DNA of 64,000 nt from Candidatus Levyibacteriota bacterium (lineage in GTDB: Bacteria > Patescibacteriota > Microgenomatia > Levybacterales > UBA12049), in the NCBI GenBank assembly GCA_038205015.1, contig JBBRCK010000001.1:51862-115861 (forward strand). The letters run 5' to 3'. Positions 27,592 through 46,783 of the stretch are shown here, in pieces (position 1 is the first letter of the stretch; each line of letters opens with the position of its first letter). Made by a program: the position numbers and the translations under genes. Under the pieces are notes generated by a model. That model saw nothing but the letters and a program-made list of their open reading frames with translations. It searched no databases and had not been told where the DNA came from.

Positions 27592-28208
27592 GATTTAGCT
27601 ATGTAAACGTAATTGCCAAAGACTTTGGGAATTGAACCCGCTTTGGCGGGATTTTTCGTTTTTACAGGCGTTTGCACTTTAAAAAATCGCGTAAATACAG
27701 CACTTTGAATGAAAAGGATTAAACTTTTTGTGACCAAGCTTTGCTTGGTAATCAGAAAGTGGTAGGAATTTTGTCAGGTTATTCCATTAAAGAAATCTGA
27801 CACGATAAAGTTTATCATTTGATGAACTTTTTCAATTTTTTTGAGAATTTGATCCTGGTTCAGGATAAACGCTGGCGGCGTGCCTTAGGCATGCAAGTCA
27901 AAGGGGTTCCGCAAGGAACAACTGGCAGACGGGTGAGTAACGCGTAGGAATCTACCCCTAGGAGGACCATAGCCGTCCGAAAGGATGGGTAATAGTTCAT
28001 AGTCAATTTATTGTAAAGGAGTTAACGCTCCGCCAAGGGATGAGCCTGCGTCCTATCAGCTTGTTGGTGAGGTAAAAGCTTACCAAGGCGATGACGGGTA
28101 GCTGGACTGAGAGGTCGATCAGCCACAACTGCACTGAGATACGGGCAGTACATCTACGGATGGCAGCAACCAGGAATATTGCGCAATGGACGAAAGTCTG
28201 ACGCAGCG

Positions 28209-28253
<45 letters not shown>

Positions 28254-28657
28254 ATAGTCCTTTCACGGACTATAGAATAAGCACCTACTAACTACGTGCC
28301 AGAAGTCTCGGTAATACGTAGGGTGCAAGCGTTATCCGGATTTATTGGGCGTAAAGTGTGCGTAGGCTCATCGAAAAGTCATACCTTAAATACTAAGGCT
28401 TACCCTTGGGAGTGGGTATGATACTTTCGATGTTGAGGATTGTCAGGGGTACTGGAACAGTTAGTGTAGCAGTGAAATGCGTTGATATTAACTGGAACAC
28501 CGATGGCGAAGGCAGGTACCTGGGATTTTCCTGACGCTGAGGCACGAAAGCTAGGGGAGCGAAACAGATTAGATACCTGTGTAGTCCTAGCCGTAAACGA
28601 TGTCTGCTAGCTTTGTCCGACTTGTCGGACGAGGCGCAAGCTAACGCGTTAAGCAGA

Positions 28658-28717
<60 letters not shown>

Positions 28718-28825
28718 CCGGTGGAGCGTGTGGTTCAATTCGAGACAAAACGAAAAACCTCACCAGGGTTTGACATGATACCGTACATTTTTCTAGAAAT
28801 AGAGAGAAATCCGCAAGGATGGTAC

Positions 28826-28869
<44 letters not shown>

Positions 28870-29255
28870 CCCTTAAGTGGGGAAACGAGCGCAACCCGCG
28901 TCTAATGTTGAATAATCATTAGAGACGGTCCCTAGTTTTCTAGGGAAGGAAGGAGCGGAAGACGTCAAGTCAGCACGGCCCTTATACCCTGGGCTACACA
29001 CACACTACAATGGCGAAAAACAACGGGCTGCAAGCCGGCAACGGCAAGCGAATCCCTTAAATTTCGCCTCAGTTCAGATTGGAGTCTGCAACCTGACTCC
29101 ATGAAGTCGGAATCGGTAGTAATCGCAGATCAGCATGCTGCGGTGAATACGTTCTCGGGTCTTGTACACACCGCCCGTCAAGGCAGCAAAGTCGGTAGCT
29201 ATCGAACATCCCCTTTGGGGATGGAGATAGAGATTGGCGATGAAGCTTAAGTCGT

Positions 29256-29978
29256 ATAAATGTTGCGACCTATGTTGGCAACAGCATAGAAAACCTCAAC
29301 TGTATCGGTGAACTCCTACTTGAGTTTATAATTATTTTTTAAATAGTTTATACTTAAGGGACAATACCGAGGGAAGTCGTCTTGATTTAATTAAGATTGA
29401 CCCCGTAGAGACTACACGTTGACGCCTTGAAAAATGACAAAACCTTATTTACTTGGTGCATTACATGATGGTACTGAAAGAAAATTTACTTATCGTATCG
29501 GTCAGAAAGATAAAGAGTATATAGAATTTCTTTTAAAAGGAATTCAATCTCTTGGTCAAAAAGCCTGGATGTATAAAGAAGGGAAAACTCGACAATTTTA
29601 CATTGTTGAATTCTCAAAATTTTTTTTGAAAGATGCAAATATAGCATCGATTCAAGATAAGATTGATTACATCAGAGGATATTTCGATGCGGAAGGAGGA
29701 ATCTCCAGAGATTCTAAGATTCGTTATTATATTTATTTTGCTCAGAAAAATCTGAAAGATTTACAAGAGTTAAAAGGATATTTAACGGAACTTGGAATAG
29801 CCTGCGGTATTATTCATAATCCAAGTAAAAAGAGAGATCCAGATTATTGGCGTTTTTTTATAAGTGTAAAATCTTATAGAGAATTTGCGGAAAGAATTGG
29901 ATCTTGGCACCCAGTAAAAAGTCATTTTTTAAGGATGAAGATATAGTCCATGCCCCTAGTAATAGGTGGATTTACATG
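29256..29978 (+). mobile_element. Group-I-like intron in 16S rRNA, inserted in AAGTCGT|AACAAGG near the 3' end, carrying a homing endonuclease ORF
   Basis: exon sequence is contiguous only if 29256..29978 is removed; 5' splice site follows U, intron ends in G. Confidence 0.7.
29434..29946 (+). CDS. LAGLIDADG homing endonuclease (double-motif) encoded inside the 16S intron
   Basis: two LAGLIDADG blocks: LLGALHDGT and IRGYFDAEGG; 170 aa. Confidence 0.85.
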   Translation: MTKPYLLGALHDGTERKFTYRIGQKDKEYIEFLLKGIQSLGQKAWMYKEGKTRQFYIVEFSKFFLKDANIASIQDKIDYIRGYFDAEGGISRDSKIRYYIYFAQKNLKDLQELKGYLTELGIACGIIHNPSKKRDPDYWRFFISVKSYREFAERIGSWHPVKSHFLRMKI

Positions 29979-38912: not shown

Positions 38913-39257
38913 ATGAGTAAACATGAAGGAATATCATTGTCGTATTTTGAAGCAGTTCTTCATCGAAGGCATAGAGCGACTTTAAGTTCTGAAATAGCAG
39001 ATTGTTTTAAGTATTTTGAAGATAATTCACCATCTAAGAAAGCTTTTGGCGATGAGCAAATGTCTTTAATCCATAATAATAGGCTTACTCTAAGAAGGGT
39101 TACAGAGGGAAAGGGTTATTCAGTCGAAATAGATGGAGTAGTAAGGGTGGTTGGAGTAGATCCAATTCCTAGGACAGAGCAATTAGAAATTGTAGGAATG
39201 ATTAGAAATGTAACTATTCCTTATGCCCAGCATGTAGCGAAAAAACTATATAGGTAA
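38913..39257 (+). CDS. Hypothetical protein
   Basis: 114-aa ORF, Arg/Val/Glu-rich. Confidence 0.4.
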   Translation: MSKHEGISLSYFEAVLHRRHRATLSSEIADCFKYFEDNSPSKKAFGDEQMSLIHNNRLTLRRVTEGKGYSVEIDGVVRVVGVDPIPRTEQLEIVGMIRNVTIPYAQHVAKKLYR

Positions 39258-39272
39258 TGTTAATTTAAAATT

Positions 39273-39758
39273 ATGAAAATCGGTATAGAAACTGATTTGG
39301 GTTACAAAAGAGAACCTAAATTTAAAACAATAAAAAGAGCGCCAAGAAAGGTTGGCGGTTTAGAACATGCAGAAATTTCCAGAAGAAGAATTGAGCAAGC
39401 AGAGTTATTAGCAGAAGAAGAATTAATTACAGCTCGAGAAGAATTTAGATTTGCTCATATTGGTGGGTCTTTGCAAGACATCTCTTTAATCCCTGAGACA
39501 ATACCAATACAAGAGCAGGTAGAGATTGTCCTTTTTCCAGAAGCAACGGTTGACGCTCCAACCACAAGAAGCGGAGATTTGGCTAAAAAAAGAGGGGAGA
39601 TAATAAATACATGGCTAGAGGATCCGTGGGCGATTTCAAGAACATCAGGGAACTTAAGTTTTTGGGGTAGGCATTTGCCAAGAATTGTAAGGTTTGCCAG
39701 AACATTAAGAAACAAGGGAAAGCTTCATCCAGGAATTGATAAAATATTAGACCAGTAA
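39273..39758 (+). CDS. Hypothetical protein
   Basis: 161-aa ORF, Arg/Glu-rich. Confidence 0.4.
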   Translation: MKIGIETDLGYKREPKFKTIKRAPRKVGGLEHAEISRRRIEQAELLAEEELITAREEFRFAHIGGSLQDISLIPETIPIQEQVEIVLFPEATVDAPTTRSGDLAKKRGEIINTWLEDPWAISRTSGNLSFWGRHLPRIVRFARTLRNKGKLHPGIDKILDQ

Positions 39759-39760
39759 TA

Positions 39761-40513
39761 TTATCGTCCGCCGAATCTTCGCTGTCTTCCAGAGTATTCT
39801 TTTAAGGCGTTTGCGATATCAAAATCTGTAAGTTCAGGTAAATTATTTTTTACCGGTACAAATTCTGCCAAAGAGGCAAGTGGTCCAAATCCTGACATTC
39901 TTTGTTCGCCGGAAGTTCTTAAAACCATATCAAAAAGGGGAAGATCGGAATTAATTTTTGATAATAAGTCGTAGGTTTTAGTGGTAGCATCAATTGCTCT
40001 TTCCTTAGCAAATTCTTCTAGCTGATATCTTTCTCCGTAATCTATAAAAACAGCCAGGGTTTTATAAGTGCAATCTTTGGTTTTTTCCATAGCGTCTTTA
40101 ATGGTTGCAAAAACAAAAGGATATTCCTTTTTAAGTCTTTCTTTTTTGCCTATAACTAAAAATTTAATATTTTCATGAATCATTTTTTCTAAATTTTGGT
40201 TAATTGTGTCTTCAACCACTTCCATTATTTTGCTGATTTCATCTGTTTGTCTTTTCCAATTATCTTCCGAAAATCCCCAAATTCCCAGCACCTTGATATC
40301 GATTTTTAAAAAGTGATCGAGAATTTTAGACATTGTCCTTCCGCCTTCTTGATGACCTTCGGAAATTGAAAGTCCCAGGCTTTTTGCCCATCTTCCGTTT
40401 CCATCGGGAATAATTAAAAGCGAATCTGGAAGATTTAAGGAGTTTAGCTGTTCAAGGGCTAAATCTTGAGTTTTTTCTTCAACATGTTGTTTAATTTTAG
40501 AATGAATACCCAC
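39761..40513 (-). CDS. uppS: Undecaprenyl-diphosphate synthase (cis-isoprenyl transferase)
   Basis: IIPDGNGRWAK...GGRTMSKIL...GIWGFSEDNWKR and C-terminal RRFGG. Confidence 0.8.
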   Translation of the reverse strand: MGIHSKIKQHVEEKTQDLALEQLNSLNLPDSLLIIPDGNGRWAKSLGLSISEGHQEGGRTMSKILDHFLKIDIKVLGIWGFSEDNWKRQTDEISKIMEVVEDTINQNLEKMIHENIKFLVIGKKERLKKEYPFVFATIKDAMEKTKDCTYKTLAVFIDYGERYQLEEFAKERAIDATTKTYDLLSKINSDLPLFDMVLRTSGEQRMSGFGPLASLAEFVPVKNNLPELTDFDIANALKEYSGRQRRFGGR

Positions 40514-40565
40514 AGAAGGTATTATACTAATTCTAAATCAAAATTTAAAGCTTAAAGCTCTAAAT

Positions 40566-43500
40566 TTATGGGGCTATCTCTTTCCAAACTCTTCGGGTAG
40601 TTTTGAAAAAGTCAGGCGCATTAATTATAAAATCGGGTCTTTCGATTATCGAGAATGCTGGGCAGGAAAGGTCTTGTGCGCAAAGGTCTCTTTCGTTAAC
40701 AAAGCCTCCGTTTACAAAGTTTCCCTGTTGAACCATAGAAGCTTTATCGTTTAGACCGGCGTTAACCACTATCGAGCCGGCAACATTAAGCCTACGGTCG
40801 TTTGCCGGGCAGGAATCTGAACCCTTAACATAAAAGTGTTTGTCCGTAGAATAGTAGCCTTCGATATTAAATCTTGTTTTTGTAGGATCCACCTCTCCTA
40901 TTAATTTACCCACGGATATATCACCCGATGTGATAAAGGTTGCAGTCGAACCTTTTGGCACATGAATCTCAGTATTATCAGTTTCATTCCCAATATTTAA
41001 ATTACCGTGAACTAAGATTACAAAATTTTTCTTAGCAGGGAAAGTATATGAACTACCCTTTAGGTTTAAACCACCTTCTGCAATATAGAAGCCATTTGGT
41101 AGATTTGCTATCAGTTGGCAATTATTAAGTCCTCCTCCTCCGCAAAATGGAGCAAGATCGGTTGGAGTAATGCCTGCACTATTGGCAATAGATGAAACAT
41201 AGTTATAGGAAGTTTTCATAACACCGGGGCTTTGAAATGAATATACATCAGGATAAGTTACTCCACCCACGATCCAGTTATACGGATTTTGAGATGCTTG
41301 ACCGAAGCCGAAATCATATGCGCCTGCCCCTGAAAAAATAACTCCGGGAGTAGCTCCACTTCCAACAACCGTGCCCAAAAGTGATGTATTTGTGCCGCAT
41401 ATTACTTTACCCGGCGGAACGTCTTGTGGAATTGGATTGTAAAATCCTCCTCCGGTTGGATCGGCAACCGAAGCTCCGGTGATGTCTCCGCCAATTGCTT
41501 GTATCCAAGGCAAAGAATTTGAAATACCAAAGTTAAGTCCGGTAATGTTTCCATTCACGTCACAGCTTGCACCTTTTGCACCATTAGTGGTGCACGTACC
41601 GTTGCCAACTGTCACGGTAAAAGAGTAAGTGCCGAGGTTACCCTTAGGATTAGTTACTTCGTATCTTGGTGGGGGGTTGGTATAAGTTATTTTATAAGTT
41701 CCACCCGGTAGATTTGATATTTTATAATTTCCTGCCGGAGCAGGATAAGTTACATTTCCGCCGGTTGAGGTAATTGAGATTGGGCTTTGATAATTTAAAT
41801 CTGTACCAGCCTGTTGTATGCCGTCTTTATTTTGGTCTACGAATACATCTCCTGTTAGATTATATATAGGAACAATCTTAATTCCGCCGTTGCCTAAACC
41901 AAGGCCGTTTGATATTCCGTAAGGCGTGCAAAGCGTTGTATTTGCTTGGCAAACGTTTACGGTTGGATAGCCGTAAGTATTTTCAATAAAGTATGGATTT
42001 GGCGCTGTCCATATAGCAGTTGAGCTCCCAGGGCTACCTGATGTTGTCGGAGTAGTACTGGTTATTGCTCCTGGGAGGGGAGAGGAAGCTAGCCAGTCAT
42101 AAGTTAAGGTTCCGCCTTGTCCTCCGGCAACGCAATTATTGGCCGTTAGGGTGGAAACTTGTCCGGGATTTCTGGAGTTAAAATCTACAGTAAGACCACC
42201 TGAGCAGATTGGAGCTGGTGGTCTTATACCAAAATTCAAAGTGGTTCCTGGTCCCACAGTTGCTGTTCGATTAGGTGAGGCAGGCGTAGTTAGAACATAA
42301 TTAGTAGGGACAGTTAAATTAACAGGATATGTAGCCGGAAATAAGTCAGCGCTAATAACTTGTCCAGCTGCATTTGTCGTATCGTTTACGCCGTTAATTT
42401 TAACAGTTGCTCCTGAATACATTGGTTCGGTTACTCCAACATATCCGCCAACTCCGTGAACGTCTCTTGCTTTATTTCCATTTAAATCCTGATATACATT
42501 TGCAGTAATATTGAACATGCAAGGACCAAGTGTTCTTGGTGAATTAGATAATTCGTTTAGTGTTCCGTCTATTTCACTTTTTGCGTATGCATGGATTGCG
42601 TGGCTAGAATTGTCAATTACCGAGGCCGGAGCGTTAAATAAGAATTGATGACTAGAACTTCCGCCGCATGCTGCATCTACACTTGCGCGTGCCGAAAGAT
42701 TGGCTACGGTAGTTCCTAAAGTTGTAGCTCCATCTTTAAGAGTAACGGTAAGCTTAGTACTAAAATTATTATATGCTCCCTGGCATGCCCATCCCCAAAA
42801 AGAAGGAGTACTAGAAGTAGTATGATAAACTGGGTCATCTGGGGGAACACAACTCGCTCCATCTAGAGAACCTTTTGACGAAGGACACATTGGTACTACA
42901 AAACTTTTAATACCAGAATAAGTTGTGCCATGACAATTATCTGCTTTTACCCGCCATTGGTAAGTATGATTTTGGTCGGTATTGGGAACTGGAATCGTAT
43001 AACTTAAAGCCATGTTTCTGTCTACGCTTGTCCATCCTGGACAGCTCCCGCCGCCAATCCCGCAATCCCTGTATTGCGCAGTATAATTTGTTGTACGGGC
43101 TGTGGCATCCCAACTAACGGTTACGTTATTTGGATTACTATCTCCTACGCAAGTTAGTCCGGTTGCATTATTTAGGCTTGGAGTACCAGGGTCAGATGAA
43201 TATGCGCAGCATCCAGCCGTACAGCTGTTATCTGTCCATGTTGAATATGAACACGTAGTATTCTTAGCAGATCCAGAACAATCATTTCCGCCTCTTTTGT
43301 GGCAAGTTCCAGTGCAGCTACTAGTCGTATTACAAAGCCATGCACAGGTGCCCCCCCAAATCCATCCTGAATTTGCGCAATATTGTGGATTATGATTTTG
43401 CGGGCACATCTGAGTAAAGCTAATTGAACGGTAAGAGCTTGTATAATTAAGGTATTTACAAGCAGCAAAATTTGGATCTAAAGTGCTTCCGCATGTGCTG

Positions 43501-43928
43501 GGGTTTTTGCAGGATATATTAAAATGATAATAATATTTTTTGAACCCGCCGTCGAATTTTGGAACAACAGTCCCAGTGTAAGAAGTAGTTGAGACTTGCG
43601 GATCGGCGCAGCTGGTTGCCCAAGTAACTTTTGCAAGACTAGGTAAATCTCCAAACTTATCGATACCTTCTATTGGAATAATATAAGAGCTGTTACGATC
43701 AATCCATACCGTATCTGATTGAGCTTTAACATTTAGGGTATCATCATTCGCTCCCCAGTAGTGAACCTGCCATTTTATATCGTTAGTATTATCAAGTGAT
43801 ATATAGATTACACATCCACCATCATATCCGCATGTTTTTGCGTATGATTGTTTTGGTAAAGACAAAGACATAGAACAAAGTGTTATAAGAAATAAAAATA
43901 AAAAGATTATTTGTTTTAATATTTTCAT
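40566..43928 (-). CDS. Giant secreted Cys/Thr/Gly/Asn-rich surface protein with SdrD-B/Cna-B-like repeats (adhesin-like)
   Basis: 1120 aa; N-terminal signal peptide; >40 Cys in N-terminal half; two SdrD-B-like repeats; local GC about 45%, well above surroundings. Confidence 0.6.
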   Translation of the reverse strand: MKILKQIIFLFLFLITLCSMSLSLPKQSYAKTCGYDGGCVIYISLDNTNDIKWQVHYWGANDDTLNVKAQSDTVWIDRNSSYIIPIEGIDKFGDLPSLAKVTWATSCADPQVSTTSYTGTVVPKFDGGFKKYYYHFNISCKNPSTCGSTLDPNFAACKYLNYTSSYRSISFTQMCPQNHNPQYCANSGWIWGGTCAWLCNTTSSCTGTCHKRGGNDCSGSAKNTTCSYSTWTDNSCTAGCCAYSSDPGTPSLNNATGLTCVGDSNPNNVTVSWDATARTTNYTAQYRDCGIGGGSCPGWTSVDRNMALSYTIPVPNTDQNHTYQWRVKADNCHGTTYSGIKSFVVPMCPSSKGSLDGASCVPPDDPVYHTTSSTPSFWGWACQGAYNNFSTKLTVTLKDGATTLGTTVANLSARASVDAACGGSSSHQFLFNAPASVIDNSSHAIHAYAKSEIDGTLNELSNSPRTLGPCMFNITANVYQDLNGNKARDVHGVGGYVGVTEPMYSGATVKINGVNDTTNAAGQVISADLFPATYPVNLTVPTNYVLTTPASPNRTATVGPGTTLNFGIRPPAPICSGGLTVDFNSRNPGQVSTLTANNCVAGGQGGTLTYDWLASSPLPGAITSTTPTTSGSPGSSTAIWTAPNPYFIENTYGYPTVNVCQANTTLCTPYGISNGLGLGNGGIKIVPIYNLTGDVFVDQNKDGIQQAGTDLNYQSPISITSTGGNVTYPAPAGNYKISNLPGGTYKITYTNPPPRYEVTNPKGNLGTYSFTVTVGNGTCTTNGAKGASCDVNGNITGLNFGISNSLPWIQAIGGDITGASVADPTGGGFYNPIPQDVPPGKVICGTNTSLLGTVVGSGATPGVIFSGAGAYDFGFGQASQNPYNWIVGGVTYPDVYSFQSPGVMKTSYNYVSSIANSAGITPTDLAPFCGGGGLNNCQLIANLPNGFYIAEGGLNLKGSSYTFPAKKNFVILVHGNLNIGNETDNTEIHVPKGSTATFITSGDISVGKLIGEVDPTKTRFNIEGYYSTDKHFYVKGSDSCPANDRRLNVAGSIVVNAGLNDKASMVQQGNFVNGGFVNERDLCAQDLSCPAFSIIERPDFIINAPDFFKTTRRVWKEIAP

Positions 43929-44644
43929 GGCTTTTTAATGATTTTAAACTCTATTAACATACCATATTCTTTAGGGTAATATTGTTTTATAAAAGCATTT
44001 ATTTCGTCGGCGATTTTATTATTTAGATTTGTTTTAATAAAATCAGGATCGTCCCTAATATTGTTTTCGGCAGAGGCATACATATTTGCTTTAGCCAATT
44101 TTGAATTGCTTGGAAAATACATTGCACTTTTTAAATTTTGAATTGCTGTATTTCTAGAGGCATTTGGAATTGCAGAAACAGAATTAATCTCATTAATAAT
44201 GCTTAGTATTTCTAAAGGTTCTCTAGAGTCAGCGCATATAGAATCTATACACGTAACAGAAAAATCATTTTTATTATAAAATTTAGGAAAGTTATCTTTA
44301 GCAAAGGTATTTAAGTCATTTGCTATAAAATTATAAATGGCATGAGAATTATTAAGTGAATAAGCCCTAGATAAAAAAAATGCAATTTTTGAAGTTGCAT
44401 TATAATTATCTTGAGGTGATGAATTCTTGTTTTCTAAAATACCAAACGGATATGTAGTCTTATTTTGCGCATTGCTTCCTGATAACTTTAGGGAATTAAA
44501 TTTTGTTTTTATATAAGTATAGTTTTTTAGATTATTTCCAAGTGAAGATGTACTCTTTGATTGATAGTTAATTGTTAATATTCCAACAAATAGAATAATT
44601 ACGCAGATTATTAACAAGACAAGTATAATTTTTTTGTTTGACAT
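43925..44644 (-). CDS. Hypothetical N-terminally membrane-anchored Asn-rich protein
   Basis: 239 aa; 4-nt overlap with the giant surface protein gene. Confidence 0.45.
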   Translation of the reverse strand: MSNKKIILVLLIICVIILFVGILTINYQSKSTSSLGNNLKNYTYIKTKFNSLKLSGSNAQNKTTYPFGILENKNSSPQDNYNATSKIAFFLSRAYSLNNSHAIYNFIANDLNTFAKDNFPKFYNKNDFSVTCIDSICADSREPLEILSIINEINSVSAIPNASRNTAIQNLKSAMYFPSNSKLAKANMYASAENNIRDDPDFIKTNLNNKIADEINAFIKQYYPKEYGMLIEFKIIKKP

Positions 44645-44720
44645 AACAAAGACTTTAATAATAAAGTACTATTCTAAGACTAAAGGCTGACTAGGAATTT
44701 GTCAATGTTTTTGTTGAATT

Positions 44721-45359
44721 TTAATAATTCTGTACAAAGAGGGCAACAGCTTGCGTTAAATTGCTAATTCCAGCTTTTGTTGTAAACACTTTTTGTAGCT
44801 CGAAGCTAGCAAGGCTAAAACCGAAAGCTTTTGCTTCTACTGATTGTGGGTTTTTGGCTATAGCTTTTAAAGCGCCACCAGTTGTTAGTATTTCGCATTG
44901 ACCCCAACGTGTATTTTGGTCTAAACTTGAATTTTTGCAATCTTTGTATGTATTAGGGAATTGACCAGCAGTTGGTGCAGCAGGAGATGCCATGAGTGCA
45001 CTATAAGCTTCGTCTAATTTAGCAACGGTTATGGGTGTTTTATATTTATCTAAAGCATGTCCTCCTGCATTAAGGTCAGCAAGAAAGCTATCAGCGCTAA
45101 AGGATTCTGCTGGGGATTGTGATGCTTCAGGTGTTATGCTTGGGGAAGGTGATACGAATGGCGATTCAGTTGGCACAATTGTCATGGAAGGAATAGGCGA
45201 TTCAGTTGGTGCGGCTGGAGTAGCGGTTAAAGCTGGAGTATTTGCCGGTGTTCTTTCTGGCGTTGGATTTGGTGTTTGAGTCGCAGCGGGAGAACAAGCC
45301 TCTAAAGACCCAGTTAATAATACTCCTGCTACTAATAAATTTCTAACTCGCTCGTTCAT
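44721..45359 (-). CDS. Hypothetical secreted protein/lipoprotein with Pro/Thr/Ser-rich linker
   Basis: 212 aa; signal peptide ending LEAC; PT-rich region then a globular C-terminal domain. Confidence 0.45.
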   Translation of the reverse strand: MNERVRNLLVAGVLLTGSLEACSPAATQTPNPTPERTPANTPALTATPAAPTESPIPSMTIVPTESPFVSPSPSITPEASQSPAESFSADSFLADLNAGGHALDKYKTPITVAKLDEAYSALMASPAAPTAGQFPNTYKDCKNSSLDQNTRWGQCEILTTGGALKAIAKNPQSVEAKAFGFSLASFELQKVFTTKAGISNLTQAVALFVQNY

Positions 45360-45412
45360 ATATGGTATGGATATTACTATAGGTAAAGGGCATTGTCAAG
45401 CATCAACATATG

Positions 45413-45940
45413 CTAGTTGTAGACCATTATTTTATTAATATAATTTATCTTATTGACTGTTTTATATTCCACTTCAACATTTTTGTTTAAATTTGCTTTT
45501 TGATCTAAATCATATAGGGTTCCTAATTGAGTTTCATTTGATTTATCTGACTTTAAAAATATGCTATCAGAATTGTAAGTAAGATCCATTGTATTTATAA
45601 TTCCAACTTTTACTTTTATTTTCTCATTATTGTATTGAGAAAGTGTTCCTTTTACTGTCCAGGTTTTTGCATCAACATTATATTTTGGTCCGGAAGGAGG
45701 TGATTTTGGAAGGTTTTTTGTAACAGGCGAAGCCGAATTTAGGGCAATAACATTAAAATAATTTAAAATTCCTAGAAAAATTAAAAATATAATTACCGGA
45801 AAAATAGTTGCCAAAAGTAGAGTAATTAAAAATTTTGTTATCCTAGAACTGTTTTGTTTAGGAGAATTATTTGATTTATTGGAATAAGAAAATCCTTCTG
45901 TTTTTGGTTGGAAAGTTATGTCTTGGATTGAATCGGGCAT
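45413..45940 (-). CDS. Hypothetical membrane-anchored protein
   Basis: 175 aa; one TM; N-terminal ITFQPKTE shared with the next gene. Confidence 0.4.
   Translation of the reverse strand: MPDSIQDITFQPKTEGFSYSNKSNNSPKQNSSRITKFLITLLLATIFPVIIFLIFLGILNYFNVIALNSASPVTKNLPKSPPSGPKYNVDAKTWTVKGTLSQYNNEKIKVKVGIINTMDLTYNSDSIFLKSDKSNETQLGTLYDLDQKANLNKNVEVEYKTVNKINYINKIMVYN
45900..45919. repeat. 20-nt perfect direct repeat GTTTTTGGTTGGAAAGTTAT (copy 1); copy 2 at 46076..46095
   Basis: exact identity read directly; encodes ITFQPKTE in both adjacent genes. Confidence 0.85.
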
Positions 45941-45978
45941 AGCAATATATTAAAGCTAACTTGAATTTTAGTCAACGA

Positions 45979-46617
45979 TTAATACCCAGAAGATGTTGCT
46001 TTAGGAGCAAGAGTAAAGTTTGCATCAACTGTAGATTTTAAAGCCGAAGAAGTAAGTCCTTCGGATGTTACTTCGGTTTTTGGTTGGAAAGTTATCGCAA
46101 TCGGAGTTGATTTTTGTCCCGGTAAAACAGAAAAATTAATCGTTGCCACAATGCCTTGTCCTAAAATTCCATTTTTAACTCCTTGCTGTGTTGGAACGCT
46201 AACTGCAAAACTGATCCTGCCGTTAACCGCATCAATAGTTTTAATATTTACAACCGGATCGACAAAGAACGGTCCGGGATTGATATTAACTTTTGTTAAA
46301 ACCTTTGGGTCATAAGAAAGTTCAAGCTGCACCGAAGTTACCGAATTTTGTCCTGTATTTATAACAACGTCAGTTGTATACGCAGAAGGAGTAGAAAGGG
46401 GTGAAGGAAGAGAAGAAATAGTTAAAACAGTTTGAACAGGATCCGGAACTGTGGCTGTTGGGATTTGTTGTGTAACTGCCGGTTTTGGTTTTTGTGTAAC
46501 GGCAATATATAAAAGTCCGAAAGCTGCAAAACTTAAAATTAAGATTAATAAAAATGTTTTTATTGCCATACCTTTTTTGGGTGTTTGAGAAACATTTTGG
46601 TCAACTGCCTCATCCAT
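45979..46617 (-). CDS. Hypothetical membrane-anchored beta-rich protein
   Basis: 212 aa; one TM then a Pro/Thr linker and a beta-strand-rich domain. Confidence 0.45.
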   Translation of the reverse strand: MDEAVDQNVSQTPKKGMAIKTFLLILILSFAAFGLLYIAVTQKPKPAVTQQIPTATVPDPVQTVLTISSLPSPLSTPSAYTTDVVINTGQNSVTSVQLELSYDPKVLTKVNINPGPFFVDPVVNIKTIDAVNGRISFAVSVPTQQGVKNGILGQGIVATINFSVLPGQKSTPIAITFQPKTEVTSEGLTSSALKSTVDANFTLAPKATSSGY

Positions 46618-46677
46618 GTTGTTTCTATACTATTTTTAATTGTAGTTAATGTCAAGTTTAACAAGAAAAATAATTAT

Positions 46678-46705
46678 TGCAATAATCCCCAGGCTTATAT
46701 ATAAT
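46678..46705 (+). promoter_or_regulatory. Sigma70-like promoter (TTGCAA, 16-nt spacer, TATAAT) for rpsB-tsf-frr, with a 78-nt leader containing a CATTCGGAT direct repeat
   Basis: hexamers read directly. Confidence 0.4.
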
Positions 46706-46783
46706 AGTACACATTACTCACATTCGGATATCTATCCCTGAGTTTAAAACTTCATTCGGATGGCGGTTTAAGGGATATAAATT

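What the first reader, a model, noticed from the sequence alone, without database searches (positions are those of the whole stretch)
40566..46617. Cell-surface locus: GC-elevated 1120-aa Cys-rich adhesin-like protein plus four co-directional small membrane/lipoprotein unknowns
Five consecutive minus-strand genes encode only secreted or membrane-anchored proteins of unknown function. The giant protein has a signal peptide, dozens of Cys in CxnC arrays, many N-x-T/S sequons and SdrD-B/Cna-B-like repeats, and its DNA is about 45% GC against about 37% elsewhere. The small proteins are single-TM or lipobox proteins with Pro/Thr linkers and beta-rich domains. For a putative episymbiotic CPR organism this is a strong candidate for a host-attachment or surface-appendage system, and the GC shift hints at distinct evolutionary dynamics or acquisition.
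Basis: partly seen in the sequence, partly recalled or inferred. Interest (0 to 1): 0.6.

Follow-up and report, generated by a model that had tools for sequence, protein, structure and literature searches.

The report
Levybacteria surface-protein gene cluster
Five neighbouring genes of a tiny uncultured (CPR, Levybacteria-type) bacterium encode a large secreted, adhesin-like protein and four small envelope proteins. The large protein ends in a conserved, unannotated beta-solenoid module shared by hundreds of relatives. The raised GC content comes from amino-acid composition and is not a sign of foreign origin.

Summary
The five minus-strand ORFs are real and sit exactly where stated. Protein A (1120 aa) has a Sec signal, 39 Cys (34 conserved in its ortholog) and two SdrD-B domains. 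E is a membrane-anchored cohesin-domain protein, D and B are single-pass membrane proteins, and C has a lipobox.

New findings:
- A belongs to a family of at least 426 clusters found mainly in Levybacteria/Patescibacteria. The N-terminal "heads" vary and the stalks contain SdrD-B/Ig domains.
- The ~320 aa after the SdrD-B domain have no Pfam family above threshold.
- D-like genes (TM helix plus an "LNYFNIL…LPH" motif) precede A-like genes in about half of the assessable loci. Cohesin genes recur nearby.
- The full five-gene order is kept in five other genomes, at a conserved chromosomal site between rpsB and uppS/glyA.

Not supported:
- GC is 41.8% against 35.6%, not 45 against 37. GC3 is normal, so acquisition is not supported.
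- Sequons are not enriched (p≈0.07).
- There is no pilin or dockerin signal.

Most likely this is a fast-evolving surface adhesin held on the cell by membrane partners. The mechanism is inferred, not shown.

The parts
45979..46617 (-). Gene E: 212-aa type II membrane protein. It has an N-terminal TM segment (residues 22-40), a Pro/Thr-rich linker and a cohesin domain (residues ~85-190, window 46048-46365).
   Evidence: ORF. Hydrophobic segment. Pfam Cohesin PF00963, E = 1.7e-10, 41.7 bits against a cut-off of 24.1. Weak phmmer hits to scaffoldin cohesins 1g1k and 2vn5. 70% identical to the L001 ortholog. E-like cohesin genes lie next to A-like genes in about 13 loci.
46627..46655 (-). Promoter-like element TTGACA-17-TAGTAT, ending 9 nt before the ATG of E (near-leaderless geometry).
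   Evidence: Consensus scan and upstream sequences. The same element is present before the L001 ortholog. Function is not shown.
45413..45940 (-). Gene D: 175-aa single-pass membrane protein. It has a cytoplasmic N-tail, a TM helix (residues 32-61, window 45758-45847) ending in the conserved juxtamembrane motif LNYFNV..L....P....LP, and a small beta-rich ectodomain (residues ~86-174).
45947..45975 (-). Promoter-like element TTGACT-17-TAATAT, ending 6 nt before the ATG of D.
   Evidence: A TTGACA-type element is also present before the L001 ortholog.
44721..45359 (-). Gene C: 212-aa putative lipoprotein. It has the signal MNERVRNLLVAGVLLTGSLEA|C, a Pro/Thr-rich linker of about 70 aa, and a C-terminal domain of unknown fold.
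   Evidence: ORF. Lipobox-like LEAC. IAAC, LAAC, LEAC or AAAC occurs in 4 of 6 positional orthologs, and the other two have Sec-type AxA signals. No Pfam, NCBIfam or PDB match. Only 41% identical to the L001 ortholog. GC is 42.3% but GC3 is 0.23.
45371..45399 (-). Promoter-like element TTGACA-17-TAATAT, ending 11 nt before the ATG of C.
   Evidence: Conserved before the L001 ortholog.
43925..44644 (-). Gene B: 239-aa single-pass membrane protein (TM segment residues 6-24) with an ectodomain of about 200 aa carrying a conserved C-x4-C pair. Its stop overlaps the start of A (ATGA), so the two are probably translationally coupled.
   Evidence: ORF and 4-nt overlap. Six orthologs, always immediately upstream of A or one or two genes away. 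No match in Pfam, NCBIfam or PDB, even with a profile.
43839..43928 (-). A residues 1-30: Sec-type signal peptide with an SYA|K cleavage-like site.
   Evidence: Hydrophobic segment at residues 7-25. Many family members show an AxA motif at the same place. Cleavage is inferred.
42894..43838 (-). A residues 31-345: lineage-private 'head'. It comprises an N-domain (31-145), a Cys-rich region (146-255) and an FN3-like domain (256-345).
   Evidence: Found only in A and its ortholog P0002 among about 1,460 related sequences searched locally. 23 of the protein's 39 Cys fall here. Weak FN3 similarity (5j7k, E = 0.22). Fold not modelled.
41871..42893 (-). A residues 346-686: stalk. It comprises the M domain (346-472), SdrD-B domain 1 (473-571) and an Ig-like domain (572-686).
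   Evidence: Pfam SdrD_B, two stretches. The M domain is shared with about 7 members and the Ig domain with about 33. SdrD-B copy number varies across the family.
41559..41870 (-). A residues 687-790: SdrD-B domain 2, the first part of the family-wide conserved C-terminal unit.
41214..41558 (-). A residues 791-905: conserved motif-rich segment (LPWIQ..GGD, TPG[IV]IFSG, GQAS..W.VGG) of unresolved structure.
   Evidence: Conserved across the family. 71% identical to the ortholog. AF2 pLDDT below 50 for most of it. No database match.
40749..41213 (-). A residues ~906-1060: one alpha-helix followed by a beta-solenoid with an ice-binding-protein (DUF3494)-like fold.
40569..40748 (-). A residues 1061-1120: near-invariant C-terminal tail. 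The consensus over 143 members is CP.F...ERPDFILNAP.F.K...R.WQEVAP-COOH.
   Evidence: 85% identical to the ortholog, making it the most conserved part of A. It contains no TM segment and no LPXTG. Poorly modelled.

Best explanation
The locus encodes a lineage-specific, fast-evolving cell-surface assembly of a Levybacteria-type CPR bacterium.

Protein A is exported by Sec and its signal peptide is probably cleaved. It is built like a modular adhesin: a private Cys-rich (disulfide-bonded) head, a stalk of SdrD-B/Ig-like domains, and a constant ~430-aa C-terminal unit. That unit comprises one SdrD-B domain, a conserved segment, an ice-binding-protein-like beta-solenoid and an invariant tail.

The C-terminal unit is the only part shared by hundreds of otherwise different proteins, and A has no covalent or transmembrane anchor. 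The unit is therefore most likely the cell-proximal retention or assembly module. It would hold the protein on the envelope non-covalently, either on a wall polymer or on the co-encoded membrane proteins. The candidate partners are D (TM helix plus conserved juxtamembrane LNYFNIL motif), the membrane-anchored cohesin protein E, B (translationally coupled to A) and lipoprotein C. The variable head would then point outward and bind the target, for example a host cell.

Shown: the gene structure, the domain content, the size and taxonomy of the family, the fold of the solenoid, the conserved gene neighbourhood, and the higher divergence compared with flanking genes.

Inferred: signal-peptide cleavage, the orientation on the cell, any physical contact between A and B-E, and adhesion or host binding.
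For: Exported or membrane nature of all five products. SdrD-B domains. Cohesin in E.

Family: 931 cluster representatives at E <= 1e-3 and 426 at <= 1e-30. In most of the 150 listed hits the best match starts near query residue 687, and 128 of 152 locally checked sequences carry the full module ending within 3 residues of their C-terminus, with lengths of 233-1927 aa. The head is private, the stalk domains vary in number and the module is constant. Identity to the ortholog rises from 42-60% in the head and stalk to 67% in the solenoid and 85% in the tail. The tail contains no LPXTG, TM segment or other known sorting signal.

Gene linkage: E-D-(C)-B-A in L001, L009, L012, L022 and L037. D-x-A or D-A in 11 more loci, and two D-A pairs in tandem in L018. 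Three of five D genes chosen independently of A are followed by an A-family gene. The B stop overlaps the A start.

The surface genes diverge faster (41-70% identity) than the flanking housekeeping genes (73-87%) between the two closest genomes, as expected for exposed proteins. 34 of 39 Cys are conserved.

The general rule that the module conserved among paralogous surface proteins is the anchoring or sorting module (LPXTG in MSCRAMMs, SLH in S-layer proteins, the CTD in T9SS cargo) is established knowledge used as analogy.
Against: No direct evidence of any A-partner contact. No Rosetta-stone fusion of the module with D- or E-like domains was found, and no dockerin was found in A-D.

About half of the assessable A loci lack a recognisable D gene. 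B and C are confined to a small subclade.

Four members carry a PT-linker and an extra domain after the module, so the tail need not be free and the module need not be terminal.

Solved proteins with this solenoid fold use it as the ligand-binding end (ice-binding proteins; ComZ binds DNA at a pilus tip, PMC6561018). This favours the opposite orientation.

E, D and C each have their own promoter-like element, so co-regulation is not established.

The structural models are incomplete: A residues 817-903 and the tail have pLDDT below 50, and the D ectodomain has pLDDT 55-71.
Confidence: 0.45

Rival explanations
1. Opposite polarity. The conserved C-terminal beta-solenoid is the functional, distal binding tip, recognising a common ligand such as a polysaccharide, another ordered surface or DNA. 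The variable N-terminal domains would then be accessory or cell-proximal.
For: All solved proteins with this fold use the solenoid as the binding surface. This holds for the ice-binding proteins and for ComZ, a pilus-tip DNA receptor (PMC6561018). The ice-binding RTX adhesin of Marinomonas also places its solenoid near the C-terminal, distal end (abstract of PMC5550230). A binding site is expected to be highly conserved. Four members tolerate further domains after the module.
Against: After signal-peptide cleavage nothing would hold the N-terminus on the cell, and AxA sites are common in family N-termini. A single shared ligand sits poorly with extreme head variability and tandem paralogs. The habitats named in record titles (groundwater, lake water, digesters) are not icy. 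No Ice_binding Pfam match.
Confidence: 0.22
2. There is no complex. The five genes are independent residents of a hypervariable 'surface-protein island' between rpsB and uppS/glyA, and their adjacency reflects a permissive site and shared selection rather than shared function.
For: The same chromosomal interval carries different gene sets in different Levybacteria: E-D-C-B-A, D-A-VWA, or A alone. E, D and C have separate promoter-like elements. The genes between D and A are heterogeneous. All four small proteins are orphans.
Against: D-A adjacency also occurs away from this site and as tandem D-A duplicates (L018). The B-A start/stop overlap is kept. In the fetched loci, LNYF-motif proteins are found almost only next to A-like genes.
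Confidence: 0.2
3. A is a type IV pilus-associated tip adhesin (ComZ-like), and the small membrane proteins are pilus accessory factors.
Against: None of the five proteins has a prepilin G|FTLIE motif, and neither does any ORF in the 64-kb window. A has a Sec-type rather than a class III signal. The similarity to ComZ is confined to the IBP-like solenoid that ComZ itself shares with ice-binding proteins (PMC6561018). Only about 4 of 50 loci are near pilin genes, which is within what chance could give.
Confidence: 0.06
4. The GC-elevated genes A and C were acquired horizontally or evolve under a distinct mutational regime.
For: GC is 41.8% (A) and 42.3% (C) against 35.6% for the window.
Against: GC3 is 0.29 (A) and 0.23 (C) against 0.26 +/- 0.036, and the excess lies in codon positions 1-2 because the proteins are rich in G, T, S, A and P. 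Orthologs occupy the same syntenic site in relatives. The family is confined to the same lineage.
Confidence: 0.03
5. The C-terminal beta-helix is an enzyme (a polysaccharide lyase or hydrolase, as in tailspikes or pectate-lyase-like proteins) that attacks host or environmental glycans.
Confidence: 0.04

Closest known systems
MSCRAMM adhesins of Gram-positive cocci, e.g. Staphylococcus aureus SdrD (PDB 4jdz, 10ps)
   Different: No LPXTG/sortase signal, no Ser-Asp repeat region and no A-domain (DEv-IgG) match. NCBIfam MSCRAMM_SdrD scores 18.5 bits against a cut-off of 2500. The C-terminus is a beta-solenoid module instead of a wall anchor.
DUF3494 (PF11999) ice-binding proteins and the 'non-canonical DUF3494' proteins of Raymond 2024 (PMC11645318)
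   Different: No significant sequence match to PF11999. It is embedded at the end of 600-1900-aa multidomain proteins, preceded by a conserved 115-aa segment and followed by an invariant tail. The hosts are CPR bacteria from non-icy habitats. Ice binding is untested and unlikely.
ComZ, the competence pilus tip pilin of Thermus thermophilus (PDB 6qvi; PMC6561018)
   Different: ComZ's solenoid is inserted in a pilin fold and is assembled by the type IV pilus machinery. A has no pilin domain or prepilin signal, and the window has no pilin genes.
Non-cellulosomal cohesin proteins and cellulosomal anchoring scaffoldins
   Same: E carries one cohesin domain (PF00963, 41.7 bits) tethered to the cell, which is the arrangement of an anchoring scaffoldin.
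   Different: Tethering is by an N-terminal TM helix, not by SLH domains or sortase. No dockerin was detected in A-D. No glycoside hydrolases are present in the locus.
Pfam DUF7305 (PF23981)
   Same: Weak matches to the solenoid core (VILVNGDL...VP.GST region) in 7 of 18 family members, best E = 0.0011.
   Different: All scores (15-17 bits) are below the 27-bit cut-off and cover only profile positions ~44-113 of 185. The window protein itself does not match. No literature on DUF7305 was found.

Membership tests
SdrD B-like / Cna-B domain (PF17210) | Match to the Pfam model above the gathering score | tested here: met
   34.6 bits against 29.7, two stretches. Family profile against SdrD 10ps_A, E = 2.3e-18.
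SdrD B-like / Cna-B domain (PF17210) | Prealbumin-like beta-sandwich fold superimposable on SdrD B domains | tested here: met
MSCRAMM adhesin (SdrD-type) | C-terminal LPXTG sortase signal followed by a TM segment and a charged tail | tested here: not met
   The protein ends ...RRVWKEIAP. There is no LPXTG and no C-terminal hydrophobic segment.
MSCRAMM adhesin (SdrD-type) | Full-length match to NCBIfam NF012181 | tested here: not met
   18.5 bits against a cut-off of 2500.
DUF3494 / Ice_binding (PF11999) | Sequence match to the Pfam model | tested here: not met
   No hit at E <= 1 for A. Only 1 of 18 family members hits, at E = 0.77. No IBP appears in PDB sequence searches with the family profile at E <= 10.
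DUF3494 / Ice_binding (PF11999) | Fold: beta-solenoid with an alpha-helix alongside (canonical topology as described in PMC11645318) | tested here: inconclusive
DUF3494 / Ice_binding (PF11999) | Ice-binding or ice-recrystallisation-inhibition activity | not testable with these tools
   This needs recombinant protein. The habitat labels of relatives are not icy.
Cohesin domain (PF00963), gene E | Match to the Pfam model above the gathering score | tested here: met
   41.7 bits against 24.1, residues 85-190, profile positions 21-127 of 139. The precomputed Pfam hit is also on record for the same gene and its ortholog.
Cellulosome-type cohesin-dockerin system | A dockerin-bearing partner | tested here: not met
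   No Dockerin_1 or other dockerin hit in A-D at E <= 1. The rest of the genome was not available.
Type IV pilins / minor pilins | Class III signal peptide (G|F/M-T-L-I/V-E) followed by a hydrophobic alpha1 helix | tested here: not met
   A regex scan found none in A-E or in any window ORF. The same scan found genuine prepilins in L042 and L047.
Bacterial lipoprotein (gene C) | Lipobox [LVI][ASTVI][GAS]C at the end of a signal peptide | tested here: inconclusive
   The window copy has L-E-A-C, with an atypical Glu at position -2. Orthologs have IAAC, LAAC, LEAC and AAAC, and two have no Cys. Lgt and Lsp genes were not looked for.
DUF7305 (PF23981) | Match to the Pfam model above the gathering score (27 bits) | tested here: not met
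   The best members score 15-16.7 bits and the window protein has no hit.

The most novel reading that the evidence does not exclude
The constant C-terminal unit of the A family (conserved segment, IBP-like solenoid and invariant ...ERPDFxLNxPxFxK...WQEVAP tail), together with the D family (TM helix plus LNYFNIL..LPH juxtamembrane motif), forms a previously undescribed two-partner surface-display system of Levybacteria/Microgenomates. It would be the functional counterpart of sortase/LPXTG, SLH or T9SS-CTD anchoring in other bacteria. Dozens of different 'heads' per lineage would be mounted on the cell through it for host contact.
Probability: 0.22. Interest if true: 0.65.

Novelty: new variant of a known kind. 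Interest (0 to 1): 0.45.

Why it matters
CPR/Patescibacteria are thought to live attached to other cells, yet apart from type IV pili almost nothing is known about how their surface proteins are built or retained.

This locus identifies a large protein family (at least 426 clusters at 50% identity), unannotated apart from its SdrD-B domains and confined to Levybacteria-type genomes. The family has a clear modular logic: a variable head, an Ig-like stalk and a constant solenoid module. It also has a recurrent membrane partner.

This gives concrete, testable candidates for host-attachment and surface-anchoring machinery in an uncultured lineage. It also provides two sequence signatures, the C-terminal module and the LNYFNIL motif, that could be turned into family models for annotation.

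The finding also shows that the GC 'anomaly' is a composition artefact, which removes a false lead.

Tried and rejected
1. Horizontal acquisition, suggested by GC: rejected, because GC3 is normal and synteny is conserved.
2. Enriched N-glycosylation sequons: rejected, 23 observed against 17.1 +/- 3.6 expected.
3. Type IV pilus link: no prepilin motif in the five proteins or in the window, and pilin genes lie near only about 4 of 50 related loci.
4. Dockerin in A-D as a partner for the cohesin: none found.
5. Rosetta-stone fusions of the module with D- or E-like domains: none. Only PT-linker plus Cys-rich or lectin-like additions were seen, in 4 members.
6. PDB sequence searches. With A alone the hits were spurious (gamma-tubulin complex repeats, E = 5e-4, low-complexity). 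B, C and D found nothing, even with profiles.
7. PHROGs and NCBIfam scans: nothing meaningful.
8. The afdb50 fold library was unavailable.
10. Literature searches for Levybacteria + cohesin, CPR + cohesin/dockerin, DUF3494 + Patescibacteria and DUF7305 found nothing describing this family.
11. The genes between D and A in other loci are not B- or C-like and do not form a single family.

Full report
**Observation.** The window contains five consecutive minus-strand ORFs at exactly the coordinates given:
- A: 40566-43928, 1120 aa
- B: 43925-44644, 239 aa
- C: 44721-45359, 212 aa
- D: 45413-45940, 175 aa
- E: 45979-46617, 212 aa

The block is flanked by rpsB-tsf-frr-rseP on the + strand, and by uppS (- strand) and then glyA (+ strand) on the other side. 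A has one N-terminal hydrophobic segment followed by SYA|K. B, D and E each have a single TM-length segment. C has the lipobox-like sequence SLEA-C. A contains 39 Cys (3.48%), against a window mean of 0.57 +/- 0.68%. 34 of these are conserved in its ortholog. Pfam finds SdrD_B in A (two stretches, above cut-off) and a cohesin domain in E (E = 1.7e-10).

Two parts of the observation do not hold up. GC is 41.8% for A and 42.3% for C, against 35.6% for the window, and B and D are only 26-27%. The excess in A and C lies in codon positions 1 and 2. GC3 is 0.29 and 0.23, against 0.26 +/- 0.036 for 38 long ORFs. The 23 N-x-S/T sequons are not more than composition predicts (17.1 +/- 3.6, p about 0.07).

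**Organism and inheritance.** A standalone 16S rRNA gene lies at 27837-29301. The closest relative of A (P0002, 59% identity over the full length) is in MAG GCA_040959955.1. There the whole block E-D-C-B-A sits between rpsB and uppS/glyA, as it does here. Between these two genomes the housekeeping neighbours are 73-87% identical. The five surface genes are only 41-70% identical: E 70, A 59, B 55, D 42, C 41. A scan of one genome per species returned 45 loci with a related protein. Fifteen of the record titles name Levybacteria/Levyibacteriota. Most of the rest are generic Patescibacteria or 'bacterium' records, or TPA MAGs labelled 'uncultured Gammaproteobacteria'. In about 15 loci the A-like gene lies beside glyA/thyA/dhfr and/or rpsB-tsf-frr. 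The cluster is therefore an old resident of a conserved chromosomal site whose content varies. It is not a recent import.

**The large protein.** A word-indexed search found only three relatives. The exhaustive HMMER search found 931 cluster representatives at E <= 1e-3 and 426 at <= 1e-30. In most of the 150 listed hits the best match starts near query residue 687. In a local check, 128 of 152 sequences carry the full module ending within three residues of their C-terminus, and the proteins range from 233 to 1927 aa. Local domain-by-domain searches show the following:
- Residues 31-345 (N-domain, Cys-rich region, FN3-like domain) occur only in A and its ortholog.
- The 346-472 domain occurs in about seven other members.
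- The Ig-like 572-686 domain occurs in about 33 members.
- SdrD-B domains vary in copy number.

Other members carry CARDB or FN3 domains instead. All members have Sec-type N-termini, often with AxA sites. They end in a near-invariant tail, with the consensus CP.F...ERPDFILNAP.F.K...R.WQEVAP over 143 sequences. Identity between A and its ortholog rises from 42-60% in the head and stalk to 67% in the solenoid and 85% in the tail. All database names are 'hypothetical protein'. The only Pfam annotations are SdrD_B, CarboxypepD_reg and SpaA.

**Fold of the constant unit.** An AF2 model of residues 687-1120, built from an 18-sequence alignment, has mean pLDDT 72.8 and pTM 0.72. It gives four regions:
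- a confident SdrD-B sandwich;
- an unresolved but sequence-conserved stretch (A residues ~817-903);
- a confident helix followed by a beta-solenoid (A residues ~906-1060, pLDDT 84-96);
- a poorly modelled tail.

At the sequence level the relationship is not demonstrable. PF11999 does not match A and matches 1 of 18 members at E = 0.77. The family profile finds no IBP in the PDB at E <= 10. DUF7305 matches the solenoid core weakly in 7 of 18 members, always below its cut-off. Raymond (PMC11645318) has described other 'non-canonical DUF3494' proteins that escape Pfam. Those come from icy habitats and often carry PEP-CTERM signals, unlike these.

**The small proteins.**
- E is a type II membrane protein with one cohesin domain.
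- B (six orthologs, conserved C-x4-C) and C (lipobox kept in four of six positional orthologs, Pro/Thr-rich linker) match nothing in Pfam, NCBIfam, PHROGs or the PDB.

**Linkage.** Local jackhmmer searches of the fetched loci show several patterns:
- The order E-D-(C-like)-B-A occurs in L001, L009, L012, L022 and L037.
- D-x-A occurs in L003, L005, L015, L018, L034 and L039.
- D and A are directly adjacent in L010, L014, L018, L029 and L040.
- L018 has two D-A pairs in tandem.
- A is followed by one to four cohesin genes in L020, L023, L025, L041 and L044.

By my reading of the gene maps, about 16 of about 32 loci with enough upstream sequence have a D gene. I also chose five D genes independently of A. 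Three of them are followed within 3 kb by an A-family gene (L050, L051, L054). One contig ends too early to tell (L053), and one has no A-family gene (L052). The B stop overlaps the A start (ATGA). E, D and C each have a TTGACA-17-TAnnAT element ending 6-11 nt before the ATG, and a similar TTGACA-type element precedes each L001 ortholog. This suggests individually transcribed, near-leaderless genes.

**Mechanism.** A has a cleavable-looking signal peptide and no TM, LPXTG or other known anchor, so it needs a non-covalent way to stay on the cell. The only part shared by all paralogs is the C-terminal unit. In other surface-protein systems the shared module is the anchoring or sorting module: LPXTG, SLH, or the T9SS CTD (established knowledge, used here as analogy). 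I therefore rate the following model as most likely (0.45). The constant unit is the cell-proximal retention or assembly module. It would be held by a wall polymer or by the co-encoded membrane proteins, with D, E and B as prime candidates. The private Cys-rich head would be the exposed, fast-evolving binding end.

The main rival (0.22) reverses the polarity. It is favoured by what solved IBP-fold proteins do, and by four members that carry extra domains after the module. A third reading (0.20) is that the genes are independent residents of a variable surface island. A pilus-tip role (0.06), an enzymatic beta-helix (0.04) and horizontal acquisition (0.03) are poorly supported.

**Novelty and score.** The domain types (SdrD-B, cohesin, IBP-like solenoid) are known, and modular adhesins are a known kind. 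New here are:
- the constant C-terminal unit as a family signature not covered by Pfam;
- its restriction to Levybacteria-type CPR genomes;
- the D family with its juxtamembrane motif;
- the recurrent D-A and cohesin linkage.

No paper describing them was found. I rate it a new variant of a known kind, interest 0.45. It is a solid lead for CPR surface biology. It is not a surprising mechanism, and its function is still inferred.

Noticed in passing
window 46627-46655, 45947-45975, 45371-45399 (minus strand); L001 upstream of 7269, 7981, 8579: Sigma-70-like TTGACA-17-TAnnAT elements end only 6-11 nt before the ATG of E, D and C. No Shine-Dalgarno sequence is visible, and similar TTGACA-type elements precede the orthologs in the relative genome. 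This suggests near-leaderless, individually transcribed genes.
   Followed up: partly
window 39761-46783; loci L001, L009, L010, L012, L016, L019, L022, L024, L027, L032, L035, L037: The interval between rpsB-tsf-frr and uppS/glyA/dhfr/thyA is a conserved chromosomal site that carries different sets of surface-protein genes in different Levybacteria: E-D-C-B-A, D-A-VWA, or A alone.
   Followed up: partly
L037:3972-5363 and L037:5365-6048: One relative has two extra genes between B and A. The first is a 463-aa secreted Cys-rich/FN3-repeat protein resembling a detached 'head'. The second is a 227-aa protein with an N-terminal signal and a C-terminal TM anchor.
   Followed up: no
L017 (four A-family genes in tandem), L033 (two), L018 (two D-A pairs), L020/L041/L044 (A followed by 3-4 cohesin genes): A-family genes and their partners are amplified in tandem in some genomes. 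One MAG (DATIIS01) has at least five copies, in L017 and L046.
   Followed up: partly
L052:1-7627, L053:1-7789, L042:11245-13558, L047:7938-8447: D-like genes lie just downstream of type IV pilus clusters (pilC, prepilin peptidase, N_methyl pilins) in two loci. Prepilin genes adjoin distant A-like genes in two others. These are too few to claim a link.
   Followed up: partly
proteins P0071, P0088, P0110, P0152: In four family members the 'C-terminal' module is internal. It is followed by a Pro/Thr-rich linker and an additional Cys-rich or lectin-like domain.
   Followed up: partly
window 27837-29301: A complete 16S rRNA gene stands alone, with no 23S or 5S gene anywhere in the 64-kb window (an unlinked rRNA operon).
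   Followed up: no
window 38913-39257 and 39273-39758 (+ strand): Two small ORFs (114 and 161 aa) between glyA and uppS have no counterpart in the syntenic relative L001. L001 has a 136-aa gene on the other strand at that position.
   Followed up: no
window 39761-40513 (uppS), 52 nt downstream of A on the same strand; also L001, L037, L010/L051: The undecaprenyl-pyrophosphate synthase gene follows the A-family gene co-directionally in several genomes. It has its own promoter-like site (40549-40521). A possible link to wall-polymer synthesis was not explored.
   Followed up: no
loci L005, L009, L014, L016, L022-L024, L033, L035, L040, L041: Many TPA metagenome-assembled genomes titled 'uncultured Gammaproteobacteria' carry Levybacteria-type loci and synteny, so the taxonomic labels are probably wrong.
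   Followed up: no
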